From Planctomycetota bacterium (GTDB taxonomy: Bacteria; Planctomycetota; B15-G4), in assembly GCA_052387675.1 (NCBI GenBank), contig JBQTIY010000001.1, positions 93,480 through 157,479 on the forward strand: a stretch of 64,000 nt of DNA, read 5' to 3'. Shown here in pieces: positions 23,120 to 61,347 of the stretch. The notes under the pieces are model-generated. The model was not told the DNA's origin and searched no databases. It saw only the letters and a program-made list of their open reading frames with translations. The number at the start of each line of letters is the position of its first letter. The stretch's first letter is position 1. The position numbers were made by a program, and so were the translations under genes.

Positions 23120-23976
23120 GACCCGCGCGGCCCGGTGAGTTCGAGTCTCTGGCTCAGCGCCGCTACGGCGCGGGGACCTCCGCGCGCGTGAAAGCGCAAG
23201 GCCGGCACGCGCCGGCAGAGCTCGGCGAGTTCACGAAAAGTCTCCGCCCCCTGCTGCTGGAAGAGATGACAACTGGCGAGCAGGGCTGCGAAGGCTGCGC
23301 CGGCATCGAGCGGCTCGATCGATGTTGCGGCGGCATCGAGCACGACCAAGCGATGCAGGGGCAAAGGGTGCGTCGCTGCGCTGCGCCGCAATCCGCCCGC
23401 CCCCCAGTACTGCTTGCCCGCCCCGCCCACGAGTTCGTGCCGAGCGGGCCCTCTGAGTCCGAGCATTGAGATCCACTCGATGACATCTTGGCGCAGCGCG
23501 ATGGGTCGCCGGCACGGCTCCACCGCCGGCGGATCGAGCAGCACGGGCAGGCACTCATCTCCCAGCCACTCGGCGCCGCTGAGGGCCAGCGCGGCGGCCG
23601 TGGTGGACTTGCCCGCCCCGCTGGGACCCGCGAGCAGAATGGCGCGGCCCTGCGGATCGGCCACGGCGCTGGCGTGCAGCAGCACCGTGCCTGACGCCGG
23701 CCTGCTCGCGTAGACATCGAGCGCCTGTTCAAGTCGCAGTAGGAGTTCACCTAGGTTGCGAGCCGTGCGAGTCGGACACTCGGCGCCGCTGAGCCTGAAG
23801 GCCGCATCGCTTTCCGAGAGGCGTAAATCTGGCGCCTCGCCTGCTGAGAGCGGGCGCGGCGCGTCGCAGCCGCAGGCAGCGGCCACGTCAGCCAGCCGCT
23901 GCCGATCCGTGGCGGCCAAGAGGACGGGCCGCGACGGGCGTTCCAACTCGATGACCCAGGCCTGATGGGAGGTCAC
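23116..23976 (-). CDS. HPr kinase C-terminal-like P-loop kinase
   Basis: 286 aa. LHASAV...GRAILLAGPSGAGKSTTAAAL...WLGDE matches the HprK-C-like P-loop layout. Overlaps both neighbours by 4 nt. Confidence 0.65.
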   Translation of the reverse strand: MTSHQAWVIELERPSRPVLLAATDRQRLADVAAACGCDAPRPLSAGEAPDLRLSESDAAFRLSGAECPTRTARNLGELLLRLEQALDVYASRPASGTVLLHASAVADPQGRAILLAGPSGAGKSTTAAALALSGAEWLGDECLPVLLDPPAVEPCRRPIALRQDVIEWISMLGLRGPARHELVGGAGKQYWGAGGLRRSAATHPLPLHRLVVLDAAATSIEPLDAGAAFAALLASCHLFQQQGAETFRELAELCRRVPALRFHARGGPRAVAALSQRLELTGPRGS

Positions 23977-24311
23977 GTGGCTGGCGGCACGAGCAGCCCG
24001 CTGGCGCGTAGTTCGGCGACAACTCGGTCGACATCGCTTGCGACCAACTCAACCGGGCGCGCATAGAGCCGGGCGACTTCCTGCGTTATGTCGGACACTG
24101 TGCGCGTCCCGTCACAGAGCTCCCAGATGAGCGCAGCGGACTCATTGAGAAAGTGCACCTGGCCCGTCGCGGGGTCATGGAGTGCAAACTGCGTTCCTAC
24201 GATCTCAGCCGACACTCCCGCCGCTTGGTGGAAGCACGGGCCTATTCCGGCCGGGTTCGGCTCGCCTGGGGCTCCGCTCTCGCGCACGGGGAGAGAGACT
24301 ACCACTCGCAA
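23973..24311 (-). CDS. PqqD-family protein (RiPP recognition element-like)
   Basis: 112 aa. FALHDPATGQVHFLNESAALIWELCDGTRTVSDITQEVARLY...DVDRVVAELRASGLLV is the typical PqqD pattern. The true start may lie further downstream. Confidence 0.7.
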   Translation of the reverse strand: MRVVVSLPVRESGAPGEPNPAGIGPCFHQAAGVSAEIVGTQFALHDPATGQVHFLNESAALIWELCDGTRTVSDITQEVARLYARPVELVASDVDRVVAELRASGLLVPPAT

Positions 24312-24383: not shown

Positions 24384-24956
24384 ATGCAGGTCGCCAGTGA
24401 GCTCATGAAGCAGTTGGATCCAAGAGTCTCCTACGATCGCGGTCCGTGGGTGGCGCCGGAATTGGTGAACGCTGAGGGAGTTCGTGTGCAGCCGGTGCCT
24501 CAAGCGGAAAACACATCGGCCAACCCGCGAGCTGCTTTGCAGGTCGATCCAGGCCTGGCGGCTATCCCCACCGAGGACTTGCTGCGGGAACTTCAGAAGC
24601 GCGAAAAGTACTTGGCCAAGCTGCAGGCACGCCGTGTGGCCATTCGCGCCGAAATCGCAGATCTTGAGCGCGAGATCACACGGCTGAGCGACGAGGTGCA
24701 GGAGGCGCCGCGCCGGGCCGCTCCCGTCCGTGCGCAGCGCGGGCAGCGCTTCAAGAATTCGCTGAGCTTGCCGCAGGCTATGGTCGCGGAGCTCGAGACC
24801 GGCGAACACACCACGCCGCCCGAGCTGGCCAAGCGCATTTTGCGCAGCGGTTACCTCACGAATGCGTCGGACTTCCCCAAAATCGTGGCGCAGGCCCTGG
24901 CTCGCGACAAGCGCTTTCGGCGCGTCGGTCGCGGCGAGTACGAGTTGCTGGTCTGA
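24384..24956 (+). CDS. coiled-coil + HARE-HTH-like protein (family member 1)
   Basis: 190 aa. IPTEDLLRELQKREKYLAKLQARRVAIRAEIADLEREI, and a C-terminus LPQAMVAELE...PPELAKRILRSGYLTNASDFPKIVAQALARDKRFRRVGRGEYELL. Colinear with the 26489 and 57417 products. Confidence 0.6.
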   Translation: MQVASELMKQLDPRVSYDRGPWVAPELVNAEGVRVQPVPQAENTSANPRAALQVDPGLAAIPTEDLLRELQKREKYLAKLQARRVAIRAEIADLEREITRLSDEVQEAPRRAAPVRAQRGQRFKNSLSLPQAMVAELETGEHTTPPELAKRILRSGYLTNASDFPKIVAQALARDKRFRRVGRGEYELLV

Positions 24957-24961
24957 GTCGC

Positions 24962-25768
24962 ATGGCGCATGTCTCCACAGGAACCGCGCCGGCCGCCGTC
25001 GACGCAGATGGGATTGAAGAGCGCCTGCTCGGCACGCGCCTGCAGCAGGTCCTGCTCGAGCTCACTTCCAAGTGCAATCTGCGCTGTATCTACTGCGCGG
25101 TGAGCCAGCCCTTCTATGTCGGCCGTGAGCTCGAACTGGAGCGCGCGGAGATCGTGAATCAGCTCGTTGCGCTGGGCCCCATTGAGTTTCAGCTCAACGG
25201 CCACGGCGAGACCACCCTCATCAAGGGCTGGGACGAACTGGCCCGCGATCTGCTGGACCGCGGCTTGGCGCTCACGCTCATCTCGCACCTCAACAAGGAC
25301 ATGAGCGACGCCGAGATCGACGTGATGGCGCGCCTGAAGATGCTTACTGTGAGCTGCGACACGATCGACCCGGCCGTGTACCAGCGCCTGCGTCGTGGCG
25401 GCCGTCTCGAGCGGGTGGCCCAGAACCTGCGGCGCATTCTCGAGCGCTGCCGCAGCGAAGGCCTGCCCAAGCCCTACATCGCCATCAATTGCACCACCAC
25501 ACATATCAACGTGCTGGGCATTCCCGACCTCGTGCGCATGGCCGCCGAGATGGGCCTGGCCTGCGTCTCGCTCACCAACTTGGTGGAGTATCCCGAGATC
25601 CCCGGCTGCGAACGGCCGCTGCATCCGGCCGAGGTGGATCCTCAAGGCGCACTGGCCGCCGTGCGTCACGCCCGTGAGCTGGCGCAGGGTTTCGGCATTG
25701 ACTATCACGTCATGGGCGACCTCGAGGATTCGCTCGAGCAGGCGCTGCGCCGGCGAGGTGTGGCATGA
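24962..25768 (+). CDS. radical SAM protein (core only)
   Basis: 268 aa. SKCNLRCIYCAV is the CxxxCxxC cluster motif. The TIM-barrel-like remainder ends without a C-terminal Cys-rich domain. Confidence 0.8.
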   Translation: MAHVSTGTAPAAVDADGIEERLLGTRLQQVLLELTSKCNLRCIYCAVSQPFYVGRELELERAEIVNQLVALGPIEFQLNGHGETTLIKGWDELARDLLDRGLALTLISHLNKDMSDAEIDVMARLKMLTVSCDTIDPAVYQRLRRGGRLERVAQNLRRILERCRSEGLPKPYIAINCTTTHINVLGIPDLVRMAAEMGLACVSLTNLVEYPEIPGCERPLHPAEVDPQGALAAVRHARELAQGFGIDYHVMGDLEDSLEQALRRRGVA

Positions 25769-26379
25769 GCGTGCGCTGCGAGCCGGCGCCCGGCGAGACA
25801 CGCGACTGTCTCGACCCCTGGAAGATGGCCTACGTGAAGGCCGACGGCGCGGTCACGCTCTGCTGCTGGTCACAGCCGGTCGGCAATGTGAAGCACAACA
25901 CGATTCAGGAAATCCTGCACGACGAGCCGGCGCGTGCCCTGCGGCGCGGCTTGCTCACCGGCCAGATGCCCGACGACTGCATACGCTGCCCCGCGCGCGG
26001 TCTGGTCAGCACCGAAGCACTGCGCCAGAAGGTCGATGAGTACGTTTCCGATGACGACCGCCGCGAGATGATGGCTGTGCGCGCGCGCCTGCACGGGCTG
26101 CAGGAAGAGGTCGTGCAACTCCGCCACCACGCCAGCAACCTCGAGGCGGATCGCGACAATTGGCGCACCCACGCGCGCAACCTCGAGGAGGAGCGCGCGC
26201 ACTTGCGCGGCGTGATCACCGGACTCACTACCCAGGCGGAAGCACTCAGCGAGCAAGTGGCCGCCGTGGAACAGGGCCGCGTGCCGCTCGGGGGCCTGAT
26301 CCGCACGTGGCTGCGCGGGCGTGTGCGGCGCAGCAAGCTGGGCGGGCGCTGGTTCCGGCCGCCGACGGGCCCGCGCTGA
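25765..26379 (+). CDS. SPASM/twitch-like Cys-rich domain fused to long coiled coil
   Basis: 204 aa. CLDPWKMAYVKADGAVTLCC (C-x12-G-x4-C) and CIRCPARG, followed by ~100 aa of heptad-like sequence. ATGA overlap with the radical SAM gene. Confidence 0.6.
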   Translation: MSVRCEPAPGETRDCLDPWKMAYVKADGAVTLCCWSQPVGNVKHNTIQEILHDEPARALRRGLLTGQMPDDCIRCPARGLVSTEALRQKVDEYVSDDDRREMMAVRARLHGLQEEVVQLRHHASNLEADRDNWRTHARNLEEERAHLRGVITGLTTQAEALSEQVAAVEQGRVPLGGLIRTWLRGRVRRSKLGGRWFRPPTGPR

Positions 26380-26488
26380 GCTTCGGCCGCGCGCCTTACA
26401 TGTAGCGCCGTCCCTACTTTGCTTTTTCGGTGGGCGCTTCGGTCTAATACCGCGCCCTCACCTCTCCACCGTTCGATCGGAACTACCC

Positions 26489-26932
26489 ATGTCCATGAAG
26501 TCCCTCTCCACCGCCGAGCTTCGTCGTGAACTCGAGCGCCGCGAGCGCGGCGCAAAGAAGCTCCTGGCTAAGCGCACCAAACTCGCATCGGCGCTGGCCG
26601 CCCTCGACGGCGAGCTGGCCGATCTGGGTGTTGCAGGTGGTTCGGCGCGCGGCCGGTCGGCTGGCCGTCCTAAGGCGGGCCGCAAGGCTGGCAAGGCCGG
26701 CAAGGCGCGCGCTCGCAATCCGCGGGCCAAGAACAAGATGAACCTCGCGGACTCGCTGGCCGCGGCGATCCGAGTCGGCACAGTTGTCTCGCCCGCTCAA
26801 GCCATCGAGCGCGTCAAGGCCGCCGGCTACAAGACCAACAACAGCGCCTTCCGCATCTCGGTCACGCAGACGCTCTCCAACGACAAGCGCTTCAAGCGCA
26901 AGGGTCACGGCCAGTACGTCCGCGTTGGCTGA
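26489..26932 (+). CDS. coiled-coil + AT-hook-like + HARE-HTH-like protein (family member 2)
   Basis: ORF 26321..26932 trimmed to ATG 26489 (MSMKSLSTAELRRELERRERGAKKL). Basic linker with AGRPKAGRK. C-terminus LADSLAAAIRVGTVVSPAQAIERVKAAGYKTNNSAFRISVTQTLSNDKRFKRKGHGQYVRV. Confidence 0.65.
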   Translation: MSMKSLSTAELRRELERRERGAKKLLAKRTKLASALAALDGELADLGVAGGSARGRSAGRPKAGRKAGKAGKARARNPRAKNKMNLADSLAAAIRVGTVVSPAQAIERVKAAGYKTNNSAFRISVTQTLSNDKRFKRKGHGQYVRVG

Positions 26933-57416: not shown

Positions 57417-58181
57417 ATGATGTCCCTACGTTCCCTATCCGTCGCAGACCTCCGCCGTGAACTTGCCCGCCGTGAGCGCGGCGCGGCTGTCCTCTCGCAG
57501 AAGCGGGCCAAGCTCGCCGCAAGCCTGGCCACGCTCGACGCCGAACTCTCGGACCTGGGTGTGACAGCTTCGAGCGCGCCCCGCCGTGGACGCCCGGCCG
57601 GCTCCAAGAACAGGCGCGGCAGCAAGGCTCCGGGCCGCAAGCCGGGCCGCAAGCCGGGCCGCGCCACAGGCCGCAAGATCGGCCGCCCCGCTGGCTCCGT
57701 CTCGCGCGGCAAGAACAAGGCCACGCTGGCCGACTCGCTCGCCGCCGCCATCCGGCCCGGCACGACGGTCTCACCGTCCGAGGCGCTCCAGCGTGTGAAG
57801 GCCGCCGGCTACAAGACCAACAGCTCGGCCTTCCGCGTGACCGTCACGCAGACGCTCATCAAGGACAGCCGCTTCAAGCGCACGGGCCAGGGGCAGTATC
57901 TGCGCGTGGGCGGCGCGGCCACCGGCGGCAAGGCGACGAAGACCGCGAAGCCGGCCAAGGCCGCCAAGCGGGCCAAGCCGGCGAAGGCCAAGCGCAAGGC
58001 GTCCAAGAAGCCGGGGCGCAAGCCGGCCCGGAAGTCCGCGCCGAAGGTTGCGCGCAAGCCCGCTCGCAAGGCCGCGCCCAAGACCGCGCGCAAGGCGCGG
58101 CGGATGGCTCCTGCGAAGGCTGCTCCCAAGGCTGCCGCGCAGCCTGTGCCGCAGGCGGCCCCGGCCGTGGCGATGGCCTAG
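57417..58181 (+). CDS. coiled-coil + AT-hook + HARE-HTH-like protein with histone-H1-like Lys/Ala/Pro tail (family member 3)
   Basis: 254 aa. LSVADLRRELARRERGAAVL, RRGRPAGSKNRRG and GRKIGRPAGS (RGRP/GRP cores), LADSLAAAIRPGTTVSPSEALQRVKAAGYKTNSSAFRVTVTQTLIKDSRFKRTGQGQYLRV, and the tail KPAKAAKRAKPAKAKRKASKKPGRKPARK... Confidence 0.65.
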   Translation: MMSLRSLSVADLRRELARRERGAAVLSQKRAKLAASLATLDAELSDLGVTASSAPRRGRPAGSKNRRGSKAPGRKPGRKPGRATGRKIGRPAGSVSRGKNKATLADSLAAAIRPGTTVSPSEALQRVKAAGYKTNSSAFRVTVTQTLIKDSRFKRTGQGQYLRVGGAATGGKATKTAKPAKAAKRAKPAKAKRKASKKPGRKPARKSAPKVARKPARKAAPKTARKARRMAPAKAAPKAAAQPVPQAAPAVAMA

Positions 58182-58244: not shown

Positions 58245-58526
58245 CTATCCCTCGTCGCCGGCATCGCCGTCGAACAGCACGCGCCCGTCACCCTTCGCGA
58301 TGACGACCACCCGCGACGAACGAAACATCAAGTCGTCTTTCCCGTCATACCAGGGCATCAAGACGAACCAGGCCGGATCGTCGGGGCATCCGTAGATGTA
58401 AACGCCACCTGGTTTGCCGTCCGAGATGCGCAAGGCCGCTGCCGTCGGGCGCGGCGCAGCCTCAGCGACTCCGCTCCGCAGCGCGTGAGCTAACGCCAGC
58501 GCGATCGCATCGTCTCGCCCGATCAT
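58245..58526 (-). CDS. small hypothetical protein
   Basis: 93-aa ORF ending in an acidic tail (DGDAGDEG). No motif recognised. Confidence 0.35.
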   Translation of the reverse strand: MIGRDDAIALALAHALRSGVAEAAPRPTAAALRISDGKPGGVYIYGCPDDPAWFVLMPWYDGKDDLMFRSSRVVVIAKGDGRVLFDGDAGDEG

Positions 58527-58959: not shown

Positions 58960-59811
58960 ATGCCTACTTCACTTCACGGAGTACAACCCGGAAGCATTGA
59001 GATCGAGATCCAGAAGCTACATGGCGAACCTGGTCTTGGCTGTCATCGCCTCCGTGTTGATCTGAAAGTTTCCGCGGCGGGCTATCCCCCTAATATGGCG
59101 ACGCTTATCTCTCTGTCGGGAGATCTCCAAGTGCAACGACAAGCAGGTCGCTTGTTCGTGTCTGCCTGCCATACCTCAATTGGCACGCCGCTTCCTCTCA
59201 ACATGCTCACCCGACCAACTTCTGTTTCTCTTTACTTTGACCTGGCTTCGAGATCGCTCCTCGAGCTTGAGTCTCACCGCGCTGGCGGTGATCTGAAGGT
59301 CCAGCTCTTTCTCCGATCACTTGCGTTCTCTACAGGACACTTCAGCAGCCCTGCATGCGACATGACCCACACGGAGCCGCAGAGCAGCTGGTGTAGCATC
59401 CTGAGCAGTATGGGCTTTGACGCTCCGTTGATGTTCGAAGTCTCGCTATCCGGTTACCCAGAAGGATCCGAACTCATCCGGGCCGCCGAACATCTGGCCA
59501 CGGCAGTCGAACACCTGCGAGCGGGTAAATGGATGGAATCAGTTGCGGCCTGTCGAAAGTGCCTTGATGCACTCAAGGCTCATGATAAGGGCTTGAGAAC
59601 GGTCACTCACTTAACGGACACCGAAGCAACGCTCCCACACCGACTGTCAGGAATATGGACAGCGGTTCGGCATTGTTGCCACTTGGCGGTCCACGACGAG
59701 CCTGACCTGAGAGCAGATGCCTTCGACTTTGCTACCACGCGGGAACTGGTAATGCTCACCGCCGCGCTGCTGGGGCACTACGGCGACAAGATCGCGCTCC
59801 AACGCTCATAA
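58960..59811 (+). CDS. hypothetical protein adjacent to Type I R-M (C-terminal helical domain reminiscent of DUF4145-type modules)
   Basis: 283 aa in sequence that looks lower in G+C by eye. Converges on the hsdM stop with a 27-nt gap. The C-terminal AAEHLATAVEHLRAGKWMESVAACRKCLDAL pattern supports only a weak domain call. Confidence 0.4.
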   Translation: MPTSLHGVQPGSIEIEIQKLHGEPGLGCHRLRVDLKVSAAGYPPNMATLISLSGDLQVQRQAGRLFVSACHTSIGTPLPLNMLTRPTSVSLYFDLASRSLLELESHRAGGDLKVQLFLRSLAFSTGHFSSPACDMTHTEPQSSWCSILSSMGFDAPLMFEVSLSGYPEGSELIRAAEHLATAVEHLRAGKWMESVAACRKCLDALKAHDKGLRTVTHLTDTEATLPHRLSGIWTAVRHCCHLAVHDEPDLRADAFDFATTRELVMLTAALLGHYGDKIALQRS

Positions 59812-59838: not shown

Positions 59839-61347
59839 TCAACCACGCCCGTCTGCATCCTGCTTCGTCGAGTTCAGCCGGCGAGAGATTCTCGCAAACT
59901 GCTCCAGCGCTGTTTCGAGTTCGTCTACGATTTCGGCGGCGATTATGTCGGGAGCCGGCAGCGAATCCGTGTCGGTCAGGCTCTGGTCCTTGATCCAGAA
60001 CAGATCGAGGCTGAGTTTGTCGCGCTTGAGGATTTCGTCGTAGGTGTAGCAGCGCCAGCGGCCGTCGGGGTTCGCTTCAGTCCAGGTAGGCTTGCGTCTG
60101 TGAATGGCACTGGGCTTGTAGCACTTGACGAACTCATCGAAGTCCTGCCGTGTGATGGGCGATTGTTTTTGTGTGAAGTGCTTGTTCGTCCGCAGGTCAT
60201 AGACCCACAGCTTCTCCGTCCACGGCGCGGGGCGGCCCTCCTTCTTGTCAAAGAAGAGGACGTTTGCCTTTACGCCTGGCGAGTACCAGATGCCGGTTGG
60301 AAGGCGGAGCAGCGTGTGGATATTGCATTTCTCTAGCAGATTGCGCCGGACCTTCTCACCTGCGCCGCCTTCAAACAGGACGTTGTCTGGCAGCACCACG
60401 GCGGCGCGCCCATTGATCTTGAGCAGCGAGAACATGTGCTGCACGAAGTTGAGCTGCTTGTTGCTCGTTTCCGTCCAGAAGTCCTCACGCACAACCACGG
60501 CGTCGTCCTTCTCAGTGTCGCCCTCCTCGTTCACGAAAAGCACGCTCTGGCTTTTCCCAAAGGGGGGATTGGCCAAAATCATCGTGTACTCCTTACTCCA
60601 CGGCGCGGCGAGACTGTCATGACCGGAATGGACCACAACCTTGTCGCCGCCGATGCCGTGCAGATAGAGGTTCATCGCGCACATGCGGCCAACCTTGGGC
60701 GAGAGTTCCATCGCCTCGACGAGTTCTTCGCGCAGCGCACGCTTCTCTTCGGCGTGCAAGTCCTTACCGAACTTGGAGAGCACATAGTTGTAGGCGTTGA
60801 AAAGGAAGCCGCCCGTACCCGCCGCCGGATCGCAAATGCGGTCCTGCGGTGAGGGCTGCATCACTTCCACCATCGTCTGGATGACGGCGCGAGTCGTGAA
60901 GTACTGCCCCGCGCCCTTGGTGGACTCCGACGCGCTGCGCTGAAGCAGTTCCTCGTAGATTGTCCCCTTCACGTCCACGGGCAAACTCATCCAATCCTCT
61001 TTGTCGATGAGGTTCACGATGAGCTGCTTCAACAGCGCGGGATTGTGAATGTCGCACCGCGCGCCCTTGAAAATGACGCCGAGCATTCCGGGCCTGAGAC
61101 CGAGCTTCTCGATGGAGTCGCTGTATTGCTTCTCTAGCGCCGCACCATCAAGCGGCAGCAAGGCTTTCCAGCCGAGTTCCGGCGGCACGATGGGTTTCTG
61201 ATTGTAAGGCGCCTCGGTGAGCTGGTCGGCCATCTTGAGGAAGAGCAGCATCGTGAGCTGCTCCACATACTCCACACAGGAGAGACCGGCCTGTTGAAGG
61301 ACCCCGGCATAGCTCCAGGCTCGTTTGCCGATCTGGGATGCGTCCAT
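59839..61347 (-). CDS. hsdM: Type I restriction-modification system methyltransferase subunit
   Basis: 502 aa. HsdM_N-like N-terminus (VEYVEQLTMLLFLKMAD), the SAM motif DPAAGTGGFL and the catalytic ILANPPFG. Confidence 0.9.
   Translation of the reverse strand: MDASQIGKRAWSYAGVLQQAGLSCVEYVEQLTMLLFLKMADQLTEAPYNQKPIVPPELGWKALLPLDGAALEKQYSDSIEKLGLRPGMLGVIFKGARCDIHNPALLKQLIVNLIDKEDWMSLPVDVKGTIYEELLQRSASESTKGAGQYFTTRAVIQTMVEVMQPSPQDRICDPAAGTGGFLFNAYNYVLSKFGKDLHAEEKRALREELVEAMELSPKVGRMCAMNLYLHGIGGDKVVVHSGHDSLAAPWSKEYTMILANPPFGKSQSVLFVNEEGDTEKDDAVVVREDFWTETSNKQLNFVQHMFSLLKINGRAAVVLPDNVLFEGGAGEKVRRNLLEKCNIHTLLRLPTGIWYSPGVKANVLFFDKKEGRPAPWTEKLWVYDLRTNKHFTQKQSPITRQDFDEFVKCYKPSAIHRRKPTWTEANPDGRWRCYTYDEILKRDKLSLDLFWIKDQSLTDTDSLPAPDIIAAEIVDELETALEQFARISRRLNSTKQDADGRG

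What the first reader, a model, noticed from the sequence alone, without database searches (positions are those of the whole stretch)
57417..58181. Third family member combines AT-hook cores with a histone-H1-like Lys/Ala/Pro tail
This 254-aa protein has two RGRP/GRP cores flanked by basic residues (PRRGRPAGSKNRRG, GRKIGRPAGS), the HARE-like module, and an ~80-aa tail of KPAKA/KKPGRKPARK repeats like eukaryotic H1 or bacterial Hc1/AlgP-type tails. The linker is encoded by an imperfect 12-nt tandem repeat (CCGGGCCGCAAG x2.5, about 57641-57665). AT-hooks are rare in bacteria (CarD-type proteins are the known example). In a very GC-rich genome, such a protein could mark AT-rich, possibly foreign, DNA as a xenogeneic silencer.
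Basis: partly seen in the sequence, partly recalled or inferred. Interest (0 to 1): 0.6.

Follow-up and report, generated by a model that had tools for sequence, protein, structure and literature searches.

The report
Planctomycete AT-hook, Rok-like DNA-binding protein
This is a real gene for a very basic protein that joins a coiled coil, eukaryote-style AT-hooks, a winged helix most like that of the Bacillus gene silencer Rok, and a histone-H1-like tail; it belongs to a large unnamed family of uncultured Planctomycetota and is probably a chromosome-organising protein that may prefer AT-rich DNA.

Summary
ORF 57417-58181 (+) encodes a 254-aa protein with pI 12. It has four parts: a confident helix at residues 9-46, a disordered basic linker with two GRP cores, a confident winged helix at residues 101-165, and an 89-aa Lys/Ala/Pro tail with no acidic residues. 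Two paralogs lie in the same window.

The first AT-hook (RRGRPxGSKN) is conserved in position in 46 of 52 relatives. The winged helix has no curated family hit of its own. [quoted passage not shown]

An exhaustive profile search finds 2,282 cluster representatives. All are unnamed. Nearly all named records are Planctomycetota MAGs, and none is on a plasmid or phage.

That idea is still untested.

Three caveats apply. This protein lacks the family's 94%-conserved wing arginine, which aligns with Rok R174. The second hook is atypical. One of the two low-GC islands has no excess of A/T tracts.

Family genes often sit in tandem, a basic hook-bearing paralog followed by a hook-less paralog with an acidic or proline-rich extension.

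The parts
57417..58181 (+). CDS of the 254-aa protein. Alternative start at 57420 gives 253 aa. pI 12.0, 66 K+R against 9 D+E, GC3 0.88.
57441..57554 (+). Residues 9-46: one long amphipathic helix with Leu/Ala at alternating 3/4 spacing. Predicted coiled-coil dimerisation or oligomerisation module.
   Evidence: AF2 pLDDT 88-95. Relatives hit the coiled-coil Pfam families DivIC, FlaC_arch, SlyX and APG6_N. L12, E15, R18 and R19 are invariant or nearly so.
57561..57716 (+). Residues 49-100: disordered basic linker (R11, G10, K6, P6, no D/E).
   Evidence: pLDDT 49-60; composition
57579..57620 (+). AT-hook 1, PRRGRPAGSKNRRG (residues 55-68). Canonical RGRP core with an HMGA-like GSKN extension.
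   Evidence: RRGR conserved in 46-47 of 52 relatives. RRGRPPGSKN is the commonest 10-mer at family GRP sites.
57630..57662 (+). Perfect 12-nt tandem repeat CCGGGCCGCAAG x2.8, encoding (PGRK)n.
57669..57698 (+). AT-hook 2, GRKIGRPAGS (residues 85-94). GRP core with an atypical Ile at position -1, not conserved in position.
57717..57911 (+). Residues 101-165: winged helix (helices 104-111, 120-129, 139-149; beta-hairpin wing 153-163) of HARE-HTH/Rok type. It carries A138 where the family consensus is Asn and Q158 where it is Arg.
   Evidence: pLDDT 92-96. Foldseek top hits are 5zuz and 5zux. Pfam hits in relatives. Residue tallies.
57912..58178 (+). Residues 166-254: disordered Lys/Ala/Pro/Arg tail (A31, K20, P12, R9, no acidic residues). 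Like histone H1 in composition only.
58016..58094 (+). 36-nt imperfect tandem repeat x2.2 encoding KPARKSAPKVAR / KPARKAAPKTAR. This part of the tail grew by duplication.
26489..26932 (+). Paralog 2 (147 aa): same coiled coil, one GRP hook, same winged helix (His at the wing Arg position), no tail.
24384..24956 (+). Paralog 1 (190 aa): N-terminal extension with the PRVSYDRGPWV motif, coiled coil, no AT-hook, winged helix (Arg kept, Asp at the N-cap). It belongs to the hook-less subtype that usually follows the basic subtype in tandem in other genomes.

Best explanation
The gene encodes a nucleoid-associated, architectural DNA-binding protein. It belongs to a large uncharacterised family of GC-rich, uncultured Planctomycetota whose layout parallels Rok, H-NS and Lsr2.

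Proposed mechanism, all of it inferred:
- The N-terminal helix (residues 9-46) forms a coiled coil that dimerises or oligomerises the protein, possibly with its paralogs.
- The disordered linker places one canonical and one degenerate AT-hook in the minor groove of short A/T tracts.
- The HARE-HTH/Rok-type winged helix adds a second DNA contact.
- The 89-aa Lys/Ala/Pro tail neutralises backbone charge and favours compaction or bridging.

In a genome of about 68% GC, A/T tracts are scarce: 59 runs of 5 or more A/T in 64 kb. Binding would therefore concentrate at AT-rich promoters and at some foreign DNA, giving a silencer-like effect.

Shown here: the ORF, its conservation, the predicted domain structure, the conserved hook, the structural likeness to the Rok DNA-binding domain, and the size of the family.

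Inferred only: DNA binding, AT preference, oligomerisation and silencing.
For: **Real, conserved gene.** 63 close relatives. An exhaustive profile search with the winged helix finds 2,282 representatives at E<=1e-3 and 910 at E<=1e-10.

**Predicted structure.** AF2 gives helix 9-46 and a winged helix at 101-165 with pLDDT above 90. The linker and tail are disordered.

**Hook 1.** It is conserved in position. The family motif [RP]GRP[PKA]GSKN matches the HMGA type (the RGRP consensus is stated in PMC8476142).

**Closest structure.** The Rok DNA-binding domain is the top hit in two independent searches (prob 0.97-0.99, TM 0.52-0.54 on the domain model, 22% identity).

**Pfam.** WH_Rok matches 8 of 52 and 14 of 142 relatives; P0063 scores 26.7 bits against a cut-off of 27.6. 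HARE-HTH matches 9 of 52 and 28 of 142.

**Shared layout.** An N-terminal oligomerisation domain, a linker and a C-terminal DNA binder are common to all known silencers (PMC6936261).

**Interchangeable basic modules.** Within the family, AT-hook linkers and Lys/Ala-rich linkers replace each other. CarD orthologs do the same, and there the two modules are reported as functionally equivalent (PMC9304148, citing Garcia-Heras 2009).

**Stand-alone gene in varied, often housekeeping, contexts.** It lies next to parB in L004 and between a tRNA synthetase and ClpB in L006. No partner outside the family is conserved. It is absent from plasmids, phages and IMG/VR.

**GC content.** All loci are 63-75% GC.
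Against: - There is no experimental or expression evidence. No RNA run holds the gene.
- Sequence-profile support for homology with Rok itself is weak: hhalign probability 5-13%, E 0.002-0.009. A profile search of PDB sequences does not find Rok. The window protein itself hits no Pfam or NCBIfam model.
- This protein lacks the family's near-invariant wing Arg (Q158; R in 215 of 228 domains) and the common N-cap Asn (A138). Its winged helix may therefore bind DNA weakly or differently.
- The long Lys/Ala/Pro tail would bind any DNA and could swamp AT preference.
- The 44-54 kb low-GC island has no excess of A/T tracts.
- Three paralogs in 64 kb and tandem paralog sets elsewhere could point to specialised rather than global roles.
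Confidence: 0.55

Rival explanations
1. It is a general nucleoid compaction protein with no sequence preference. The Lys/Ala/Pro tail and basic linker act like histone H1, chlamydial Hc1, AlgP or the (P)AKKA tail of mycobacterial HU. The GRP cores are then just part of a low-complexity basic region.
For: The tail is 89 aa with 33% K+R and no acidic residue. Half of the family (102 of 206) has no GRP before the winged helix, carrying Lys/Ala-rich linkers instead. The wing Arg is lost in this protein. Two GRP cores are only modestly unlikely given the linker composition (P about 0.02).
Against: Hook 1 is conserved in position with an extended HMGA-like context in 46 of 52 relatives. That is selection on a motif, not on composition. 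A folded winged helix is conserved across 2,282 representatives.
Confidence: 0.2
2. It is a promoter-specific architectural transcription factor, like CarD or HMGA. Alternatively it is one subunit of a regulatory complex made with its hook-less paralog, acting at a limited regulon rather than genome-wide.
For: Among well-studied bacterial AT-hook proteins, CarD is a transcription factor (PMC4374960). HARE-HTH also occurs in the RNAP delta subunit, and RNAP-complex chain 8x6g_E and 9a6y_A (RPOE-RPOC) are among the fold hits. Tandem sets of a basic paralog followed by an acidic or proline-rich-extension paralog are conserved in 10 of 31 loci, which suggests a dedicated partner.
Against: No RNAP-interacting CarD_CdnL_TRCF domain or sensor domain is present. 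No target operon is conserved next to the gene. The family is large and the proteins are extremely basic.
Confidence: 0.17
3. It is an accessory gene of the adjacent low-GC island (Type I R-M at 59.8-64 kb) or of a mobile element. HARE-HTH domains are known in restriction enzymes, and sRok is plasmid-borne.
For: The gene lies about 1.7 kb from hsdM. One relative sits after a TerB / BrxC-D-like / DEAD-helicase cluster (L003).
Against: The gene has 73% GC and GC3 of 0.88, like the core genome and unlike the island at 57-59%. It is convergent with and separate from the island genes. No neighbour is conserved in 35 loci. There are no matches in plasmids, phages or IMG/VR.
Confidence: 0.03
4. It binds RNA, ribosomes or polyphosphate granules through its basic tail rather than binding DNA.
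For: Extreme basicity and disorder. Lys/Ala/Pro repeats are not specific to DNA.
Against: The AT-hook and the winged helix are DNA-binding modules. The nearest structure is a DNA-bound domain.
Confidence: 0.05

Closest known systems
Rok (Bacillus subtilis xenogeneic silencer; Pfam WH_Rok PF23159 plus N-terminal PF26513; PDB 5ZUX, 5ZUZ)
   Same: The order of parts is the same: an N-terminal coiled-coil helix, a flexible linker, a basic Arg-rich stretch just before the domain, then a C-terminal winged helix ending ...K-K/R-x-x-R-G-Q-Y. The Rok DNA-binding domain is the top structural match. WH_Rok is one of the two Pfam models that relatives hit. Rok's pre-domain tail RRRRGTARPGSK, which lies in the minor groove (PMC6212790), resembles the family's RRGRPxGSK hook. 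That resemblance is not supported by hhalign.
   Different: - Rok homologs are reported mainly in Bacillus and close genera (PMC6212790); this family is in Planctomycetota.
- Rok has a neutral Q-linker and explicitly no AT-hook (PMC6212790, PMC6936261). Here the linker carries genuine RGRP hooks and there is an H1-like tail.
- Profile-profile support for homology is weak.
- The window protein has Ala and Gln where Rok has N154 and R174.
HARE-HTH domain (Pfam PF05066; RNAP delta subunit, ASXL, HB1, restriction enzymes)
   Same: It is the most frequent Pfam match among relatives, best E 8.7e-8. It shares the ending F-x-R/K-x-G-R-G-x-Y/W-x-L and a three-helix plus hairpin fold. RNAP-complex chain 8x6g_E and the RPOE-RPOC model 9a6y_A appear among the fold hits.
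   Different: The window protein does not hit the model at E<=10. Known HARE-HTH proteins are not built as coiled coil plus AT-hooks plus basic tail. The RNAP delta subunit has an acidic tail.
Lsr2 (Actinobacteria), H-NS and MvaT xenogeneic silencers
   Same: They share the functional layout: an N-terminal oligomerisation domain, a linker and a C-terminal binder of the AT-rich minor groove. Lsr2 works in high-GC genomes with an AT-hook-like RGR loop (PMC8476142, PMC6936261).
   Different: The folds are unrelated. Their 'AT-hook-like' motif is a loop inside a folded domain, not a free HMGA-type RGRP hook. No homology was detected.
CarD of Myxococcus xanthus and relatives (HMGA-like or H1-like C-terminal domain)
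   Same: It is a bacterial protein with true RGRP AT-hooks. In some CarD orthologs the hooks are replaced by a Lys/Ala/Pro-rich H1-like region (PMC4374960, PMC9304148). The same interchange is seen within this family.
   Different: CarD has an RNAP-binding CarD_CdnL_TRCF N-terminal domain and an acidic segment, needs CarG, and has no winged helix or coiled coil. Here the hooks and the H1-like tail occur together in one protein.
Eukaryotic HMGA and linker histone H1; bacterial Hc1, AlgP and the HupB tail
   Same: The hook context RGRP(K/P)GSKN is like HMGA (from established knowledge of HMGA1 hook 2). A winged helix followed by a disordered Lys/Ala/Pro tail mirrors the H1 globular domain plus its C-terminal domain.
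   Different: The likeness is in motif and composition only. No homology to the H1 globular domain was shown; forkhead and H1-type winged helices rank below Rok.

Membership tests
AT-hook motif (SMART SM00384 / Pfam PF02178) | GRP core preceded by R or P and flanked by basic residues | tested here: met
   Hook 1, RRGRPAGSKNRR, is met in full. Hook 2, KIGRPAGS, has Ile at position -1, which is atypical.
AT-hook motif (SMART SM00384 / Pfam PF02178) | Lies in an intrinsically disordered basic segment | tested here: met
   pLDDT is 49-60 over residues 47-100, with no secondary structure.
AT-hook motif (SMART SM00384 / Pfam PF02178) | Motif under selection (conserved in relatives), not a composition artefact | tested here: met
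   R56, R57 and G58 are present in 46 of 52 and R59 in 47 of 52 relatives. 197 GRP sites occur in 206 family proteins with the consensus RR/GP-GRP-P/K-G-S-K-N.
AT-hook motif (SMART SM00384 / Pfam PF02178) | Binds the minor groove of A/T tracts | not testable with these tools
   Needs EMSA or ITC with netropsin competition.
Rok family (PF23159 WH_Rok + PF26513) | Match to the WH_Rok model above the gathering score | tested here: not met
   The window protein has no hit at E<=10. The best relative, P0063, scores 26.7 bits against a cut-off of 27.6. 8 of 52 and 14 of 142 relatives hit below threshold.
Rok family (PF23159 WH_Rok + PF26513) | Winged-helix fold closest to the Rok DNA-binding domain | tested here: met
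   5zuz and 5zux are ranks 1 and 2 in both searches: E 0.015-0.048, prob 0.96-0.99, TMq 0.52-0.54 for the domain model.
Rok family (PF23159 WH_Rok + PF26513) | Invariant DNA-contact residues N154, K171 and R174 (PMC6212790) | tested here: not met
   By the hhalign register, N154 aligns with A138, K171 with R155 and R174 with Q158 in the window protein. The family consensus does keep N (59%), a basic residue (96%) and R (94%) at these positions. The register comes from a low-probability alignment.
Rok family (PF23159 WH_Rok + PF26513) | Rok N-terminal domain (PF26513) | tested here: not met
   It is not among the Pfam matches listed for any of 194 family members scanned. hhalign aligns only the winged helix.
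HARE-HTH (PF05066) | Match to the Pfam model | tested here: inconclusive
   The window protein has no hit. 9 of 52 and 28 of 142 relatives hit, with best E 8.7e-8. One relative (P0272) carries a precomputed PF05066 annotation.
H-NS-like / xenogeneic silencer (functional class) | N-terminal oligomerisation domain, flexible linker and C-terminal DNA-binding domain | tested here: met
   The predicted architecture fits. Oligomerisation itself is inferred.
H-NS-like / xenogeneic silencer (functional class) | Preferential binding and repression of AT-rich, horizontally acquired DNA; DNA bridging or filament formation | not testable with these tools
   A/T runs of 5 or more are scarce and are enriched only in the 59-63 kb island. 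There are no binding data.
CarD (CarD_CdnL_TRCF + HMGA-like) | N-terminal RNAP-interacting CarD_CdnL_TRCF domain | tested here: not met
   The window protein has no Pfam hit at all, and the family is not among the listed top matches for relatives.
Linker histone H1 / Hc1 / AlgP | Homology beyond Lys/Ala/Pro composition | tested here: not met
   The window protein has no Pfam, NCBIfam or PDB sequence hit, and no H1, Hc1 or AlgP family is among the listed matches of relatives. The tail is alike in composition only.

The most novel reading that the evidence does not exclude
It would be a further silencer family, distantly related to Rok, that reads AT-rich DNA with genuine eukaryote-type AT-hooks. 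It would work as hetero-oligomers of a basic hook-bearing paralog and a hook-less paralog with an acidic or proline-rich extension, encoded in tandem. H1-like tails such as the one here would tune compaction.
Probability: 0.3. Interest if true: 0.8.

Novelty: new variant of a known kind. Interest (0 to 1): 0.6.

Why it matters
Xenogeneic silencers are known from Proteobacteria (H-NS, MvaT), Actinobacteria (Lsr2) and Bacillus (Rok). My searches of the held papers found nothing comparable described for Planctomycetota, a phylum noted for its condensed nucleoids.

This gene belongs to a family of at least 2,282 sequence clusters with no curated model and no name. The family combines a Rok-like winged helix with canonical HMGA-type AT-hooks and, in some members, an H1-like tail.

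If it binds AT-rich DNA as predicted, three things would follow:
- The Rok type of silencer would reach well beyond Bacillus.
- There would be a second bacterial lineage, after myxobacterial CarD, with true AT-hooks, and one that again shows AT-hook and H1-like modules replacing each other.
- Chromosome organisation and control of foreign DNA in uncultured Planctomycetota would gain an experimental handle.

All of this can be tested with recombinant protein.

Tried and rejected
- **Direct database look-ups on the window protein.** Pfam, NCBIfam and PDB sequence searches gave nothing usable.
- **Profile search of PDB sequences with the winged-helix alignment.** It did not find Rok and returned only chance hits: YraP and dethiobiotin synthetase.
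- **hhalign of the family against a Rok alignment.** It aligned the winged helix in a sensible register but with only 5-13% probability. The Rok alignment has low diversity, Neff 1.7. I therefore do not file the protein as a Rok family member.
- **Shared upstream motif among the three paralogs** (a possible autoregulation site). None was found. The sigma-70 promoter and terminator scan was empty or at chance level.
- **Conserved neighbours.** None of 8 neighbour proteins of the window paralogs recurs in 35 related loci. Linkage to the Type I R-M genes or to the radical-SAM/SPASM genes is rejected.
- **Mobile-element origin.** There were no matches in PLSDB plasmids, INPHARED phages or IMG/VR.
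- **Expression.** No RNA run holds the gene. The DNA runs give only low-depth contigs that break at the repeats, so copy-number variation of the repeats could not be assessed.
- **Genome-wide paralog count and taxonomic survey.** The single genome-contig scan used a narrow pattern and returned one Planctomycetota MAG.
Full report
**1. The observation**

- The public gene call starts at the second ATG, 57420, giving 253 aa (P0001). Relatives begin M-[AS]-L-[RK]-S-L-S, which fits that start.
- The protein has pI 12.0, with 66 K+R against 9 D+E. The gene has 73% GC and GC3 of 0.88, typical of a real gene in this GC-rich genome.
- The two GRP cores are at residues 55-68 (PRRGRPAGSKNRRG) and 85-94 (GRKIGRPAGS).
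- The 12-nt repeat CCGGGCCGCAAG is a perfect 2.8-copy array at 57630-57662.
- The tail DNA holds 9-, 12-, 18- and 36-nt imperfect repeats. The 36-nt unit (58016-58094) encodes KPARKSAPKVAR / KPARKAAPKTAR.
- Residues 166-254 are A31, K20, P12, R9 with no acidic residue.
- Two paralogs lie in the window, so 'third family member' is correct: 26489-26929 (147 aa, 60% identical, no tail) and 24384-24953 (190 aa, 30% identical, no hooks).

**2. More than chance?**

In shuffles of the 52-aa linker, two GRP cores arise with P about 0.02, and five GR[PK] with P about 1e-5.

Conservation is the stronger argument.
- In an alignment of 52 relatives, R56, R57 and G58 are present in 46, R59 in 47 and P60 in 38.
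- Across 206 family proteins there are 197 GRP sites with the consensus (R/G)(R/P)GRP(P/K/A)G(S/R)K(N). The commonest 10-mers are RRGRPPGSKN and GPGRPKGSKN. This is the HMGA type of hook; the RGRP consensus is stated in PMC8476142.
- Hook 2 of the window protein has Ile before GRP, where the family has R or P in 165 of 197 sites. It is not conserved in position, so I rate it a degenerate hook.

**3. Structure**

AlphaFold2 with the family alignment gives four parts:
- one long helix, residues 9-46, pLDDT 88-95;
- a disordered linker, residues 47-100;
- a compact winged helix, residues 101-165, pLDDT 92-96, with helices 104-111, 120-129 and 139-149 and a hairpin at 153-163;
- a disordered tail.

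The helix has Leu/Ala at alternating 3/4 spacing. Relatives hit the coiled-coil Pfam families DivIC, FlaC_arch, SlyX and APG6_N.

**4. What the folded domain is**

The window protein matches no Pfam or NCBIfam model and no PDB sequence. Its relatives do give matches.
- HARE-HTH matches 9 of 52 and 28 of 142 members, best E 8.7e-8.
- WH_Rok matches 8 of 52 and 14 of 142 members. P0063 scores 26.7 bits against a gathering score of 27.6.
- Foldseek against the PDB puts the Rok DNA-binding domain (5ZUZ, 5ZUX) at ranks 1 and 2, both with the full model and with a domain-only model (prob 0.96-0.99, TM 0.52-0.54 on the query, 22% identity, E 0.015-0.048). Generic forkhead, PhoB-type and RNAP-delta winged helices rank below.
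- I checked my recalled Rok sequence against 5ZUZ chain A; it matches exactly over residues 97-191. I then built a Rok alignment.
- hhalign of the family against Rok aligns the whole winged helix in a sensible register but with only 5-13% probability. A profile search of PDB sequences misses Rok.

Verdict: this is a HARE-HTH/Rok-type winged helix. It is Rok-like in fold and layout, but it is not demonstrably a member of the Rok family.

**5. Residue-level comparison**

In Rok, N154 (N-cap of helix 3), K171 and R174 (wing) are invariant and matter most for minor-groove binding. A basic pre-domain tail, R105-R112, also lies in the groove (PMC6212790).

In the hhalign register these map to positions 138, 155 and 158 here. 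Position 138 is exactly the N-cap of predicted helix 139-149, which supports the register.

| Rok residue | Position here | 228 family domains | Window protein |
|---|---|---|---|
| N154 | 138 | Asn in 134 (59%) | Ala |
| K171 | 155 | Lys/Arg/His in 96% | Arg |
| R174 | 158 | Arg in 215 (94%) | Gln (the only Gln in the sample) |

Paralog 2 has Ala and His at positions 138 and 158. Paralog 1 has Asp and Arg.

So the member with the longest extra basic segments has a winged helix that departs from the family's probable DNA-reading residues. Its DNA binding may rest more on the hooks and the tail.

**6. The family**

- An exhaustive HMMER search with the winged-helix profile finds 2,282 representatives of 50%-identity clusters at E<=1e-3, and 910 at E<=1e-10.
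- In 206 sampled members: 104 have at least one GRP before the winged helix and 58 have at least two; the rest carry Lys/Ala-rich linkers. 21 have two or three winged helices. 34 have a basic tail of at least 25 aa and 13 of at least 60 aa. The window protein's 88-aa tail is the second longest.
- Every source name is 'hypothetical protein' or a clear mis-annotation.
- The organisms named are Planctomycetota or Phycisphaerales MAGs, plus two likely mis-binned short contigs labelled Aenigmarchaeota and Limnocylindrales.
- None of the listed relatives is in UniRef, and none is named after a cultured strain.
- All loci are 63-75% GC.
I saw such twin-domain members but did not verify the taxon.

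**7. Genomic context**

- No conserved partner outside the family was found. Examples are a position next to parB (L004), one between a tRNA synthetase and ClpB (L006), and one after a TerB/BrxC-D-like/DEAD helicase cluster (L003).
- There are no matches in plasmids, phages or IMG/VR.
- Family genes are often in tandem. In 10 of 31 loci, a basic hook-bearing gene is followed on the same strand by a hook-less paralog with an acidic or proline-rich N-terminal extension (motifs PRRSYDRGxWV or GFPWExSPLAQFPM). Sometimes there is a third gene.
- Window paralog 1 is of the hook-less subtype. Here it is separated from paralog 2 by a radical-SAM/SPASM pair.
- This arrangement suggests hetero-oligomers. 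It recalls H-NS/StpA/Hha and Rok/sRok (PMC6936261).

**8. Mechanism and rivals**

The best-supported reading is an architectural, nucleoid-associated DNA binder with four working parts:
- coiled-coil oligomerisation;
- AT-hooks, and perhaps the winged helix, in the minor groove of scarce A/T tracts;
- a Lys/Ala/Pro tail for charge neutralisation and compaction;
- as a result, preferential occupancy, and plausibly silencing, of AT-rich DNA.

This is the layout of every known xenogeneic silencer (PMC6936261). Lsr2 shows that an RGR-type minor-groove reader works in high-GC genomes (PMC8476142).

The window gives only partial comfort. Runs of 5 or more A/T number 59 in 64 kb. They are enriched in the 59-63 kb island (13) but not in the 44-54 kb island (10).

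Rivals, with my odds:
- a non-specific compaction protein, 0.2;
- a promoter-specific architectural factor, or a subunit of a complex with its paralog, 0.17;
- an RNA- or granule-binding protein, 0.05;
- an accessory gene of the neighbouring R-M island, 0.03.

**9. Comparison with known systems, and novelty**

Held-literature searches gave little.
- No paper combines AT-hook, Planctomycetes and nucleoid.
- The one paper holding both 'xenogeneic silencer' and 'Planctomycetota' has the former only in its reference list.
- The 13 papers holding 'Planctomycetes' and 'nucleoid-associated protein' do not, by title or abstract, describe such a family.

CarD is the best-studied bacterial AT-hook protein. 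Its orthologs swap AT-hooks for an H1-like Lys/Ala/Pro domain (PMC9304148, PMC4374960). The same swap occurs in this family, and the window protein carries both.

I class the finding as a new variant of a known kind: an H-NS/Rok-like architectural protein with a Rok/HARE-type winged helix and true AT-hooks. Function is inferred throughout. The decisive tests need only recombinant protein.

**10. Limits**

- The genome search was shut, so the paralog count per genome and a proper taxonomic survey are missing.
- No RNA data exist for the gene.
- The residue register with Rok rests on a low-probability alignment, supported only by the predicted secondary structure.

Noticed in passing
L002 5953-7108; L019 716-1766; L022 190-1255; L024 796-1864; L025 1318-2472; L028 4545-6069; L030 272-2127; L026 473-1862 and 3581-4838; L021 1915-3277; L018 1310-2919: Family genes occur as same-strand tandem sets. 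A basic AT-hook paralog is followed at once by a hook-less paralog with an acidic or proline-rich N-terminal extension (motifs PRRSYDRGxWV or GFPWExSPLAQFPM). Sometimes there is a third gene, or a second gene with two winged helices. 10 of 31 loci show this, which suggests hetero-oligomers.
   Followed up: partly
window 24384-26932: Paralog 1 (24384-24956) and paralog 2 (26489-26932) flank a radical-SAM gene (24962-25768) and a SPASM plus coiled-coil gene (25765-26379). In other genomes the two paralog subtypes are directly adjacent, so the radical-SAM pair looks like an insertion between them. A PqqD-like gene lies divergently at 23973-24311.
   Followed up: partly
window 57888-57890 (codon for Q158) and 26921-26923 region (His in paralog 2): The wing arginine is conserved in 215 of 228 family winged helices and aligns with Rok R174. 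It is Gln in the window protein (unique in the sample) and His in paralog 2.
   Followed up: yes
P0118-P0124, P0126, P0140, P0141, P0143, P0151, P0156, P0162: About 10% of sampled family members carry two or three winged helices joined by Lys/Ala-rich linkers, with no AT-hooks.
   Followed up: partly
Rok residues 105-116 (PDB 5ZUZ) compared with window residues 56-64: Rok's pre-domain tail RRRRGTARPGSK lies in the minor groove in the NMR complex. It resembles the family hook RRGRPxGSK. sRok-like proteins read RRGRVRPDSK and RRRGRIRPNSK at the same place. It may be a degenerate AT-hook in Rok. hhalign does not align this stretch.
   Followed up: no
window 58245-58526 (-) and 58960-59811 (+): Two ORFs of 93 aa and 283 aa lie between the gene and the Type I R-M methylase (59839-61347). 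Neither has a Pfam match.
   Followed up: no
window 1-64000: A/T runs of 5 or more are very scarce, 59 in 64 kb, with only 14 of 6 or more. The 59-63 kb low-GC island is enriched (13 runs). The 44-54 kb island is not (10 runs).
   Followed up: yes
L003 1-5564; L004 3882-5507: One relative follows a TerB / BrxC-D-like ATPase / DEAD helicase cluster, which looks like a defence system. Another lies directly downstream of parB.
   Followed up: no
P0021 (196 aa): One relative has a signal-peptide and haem-motif (CIACH) N-terminus in place of the coiled coil. It comes from a 730-bp contig, so it may be a chimeric assembly or gene call.
   Followed up: no
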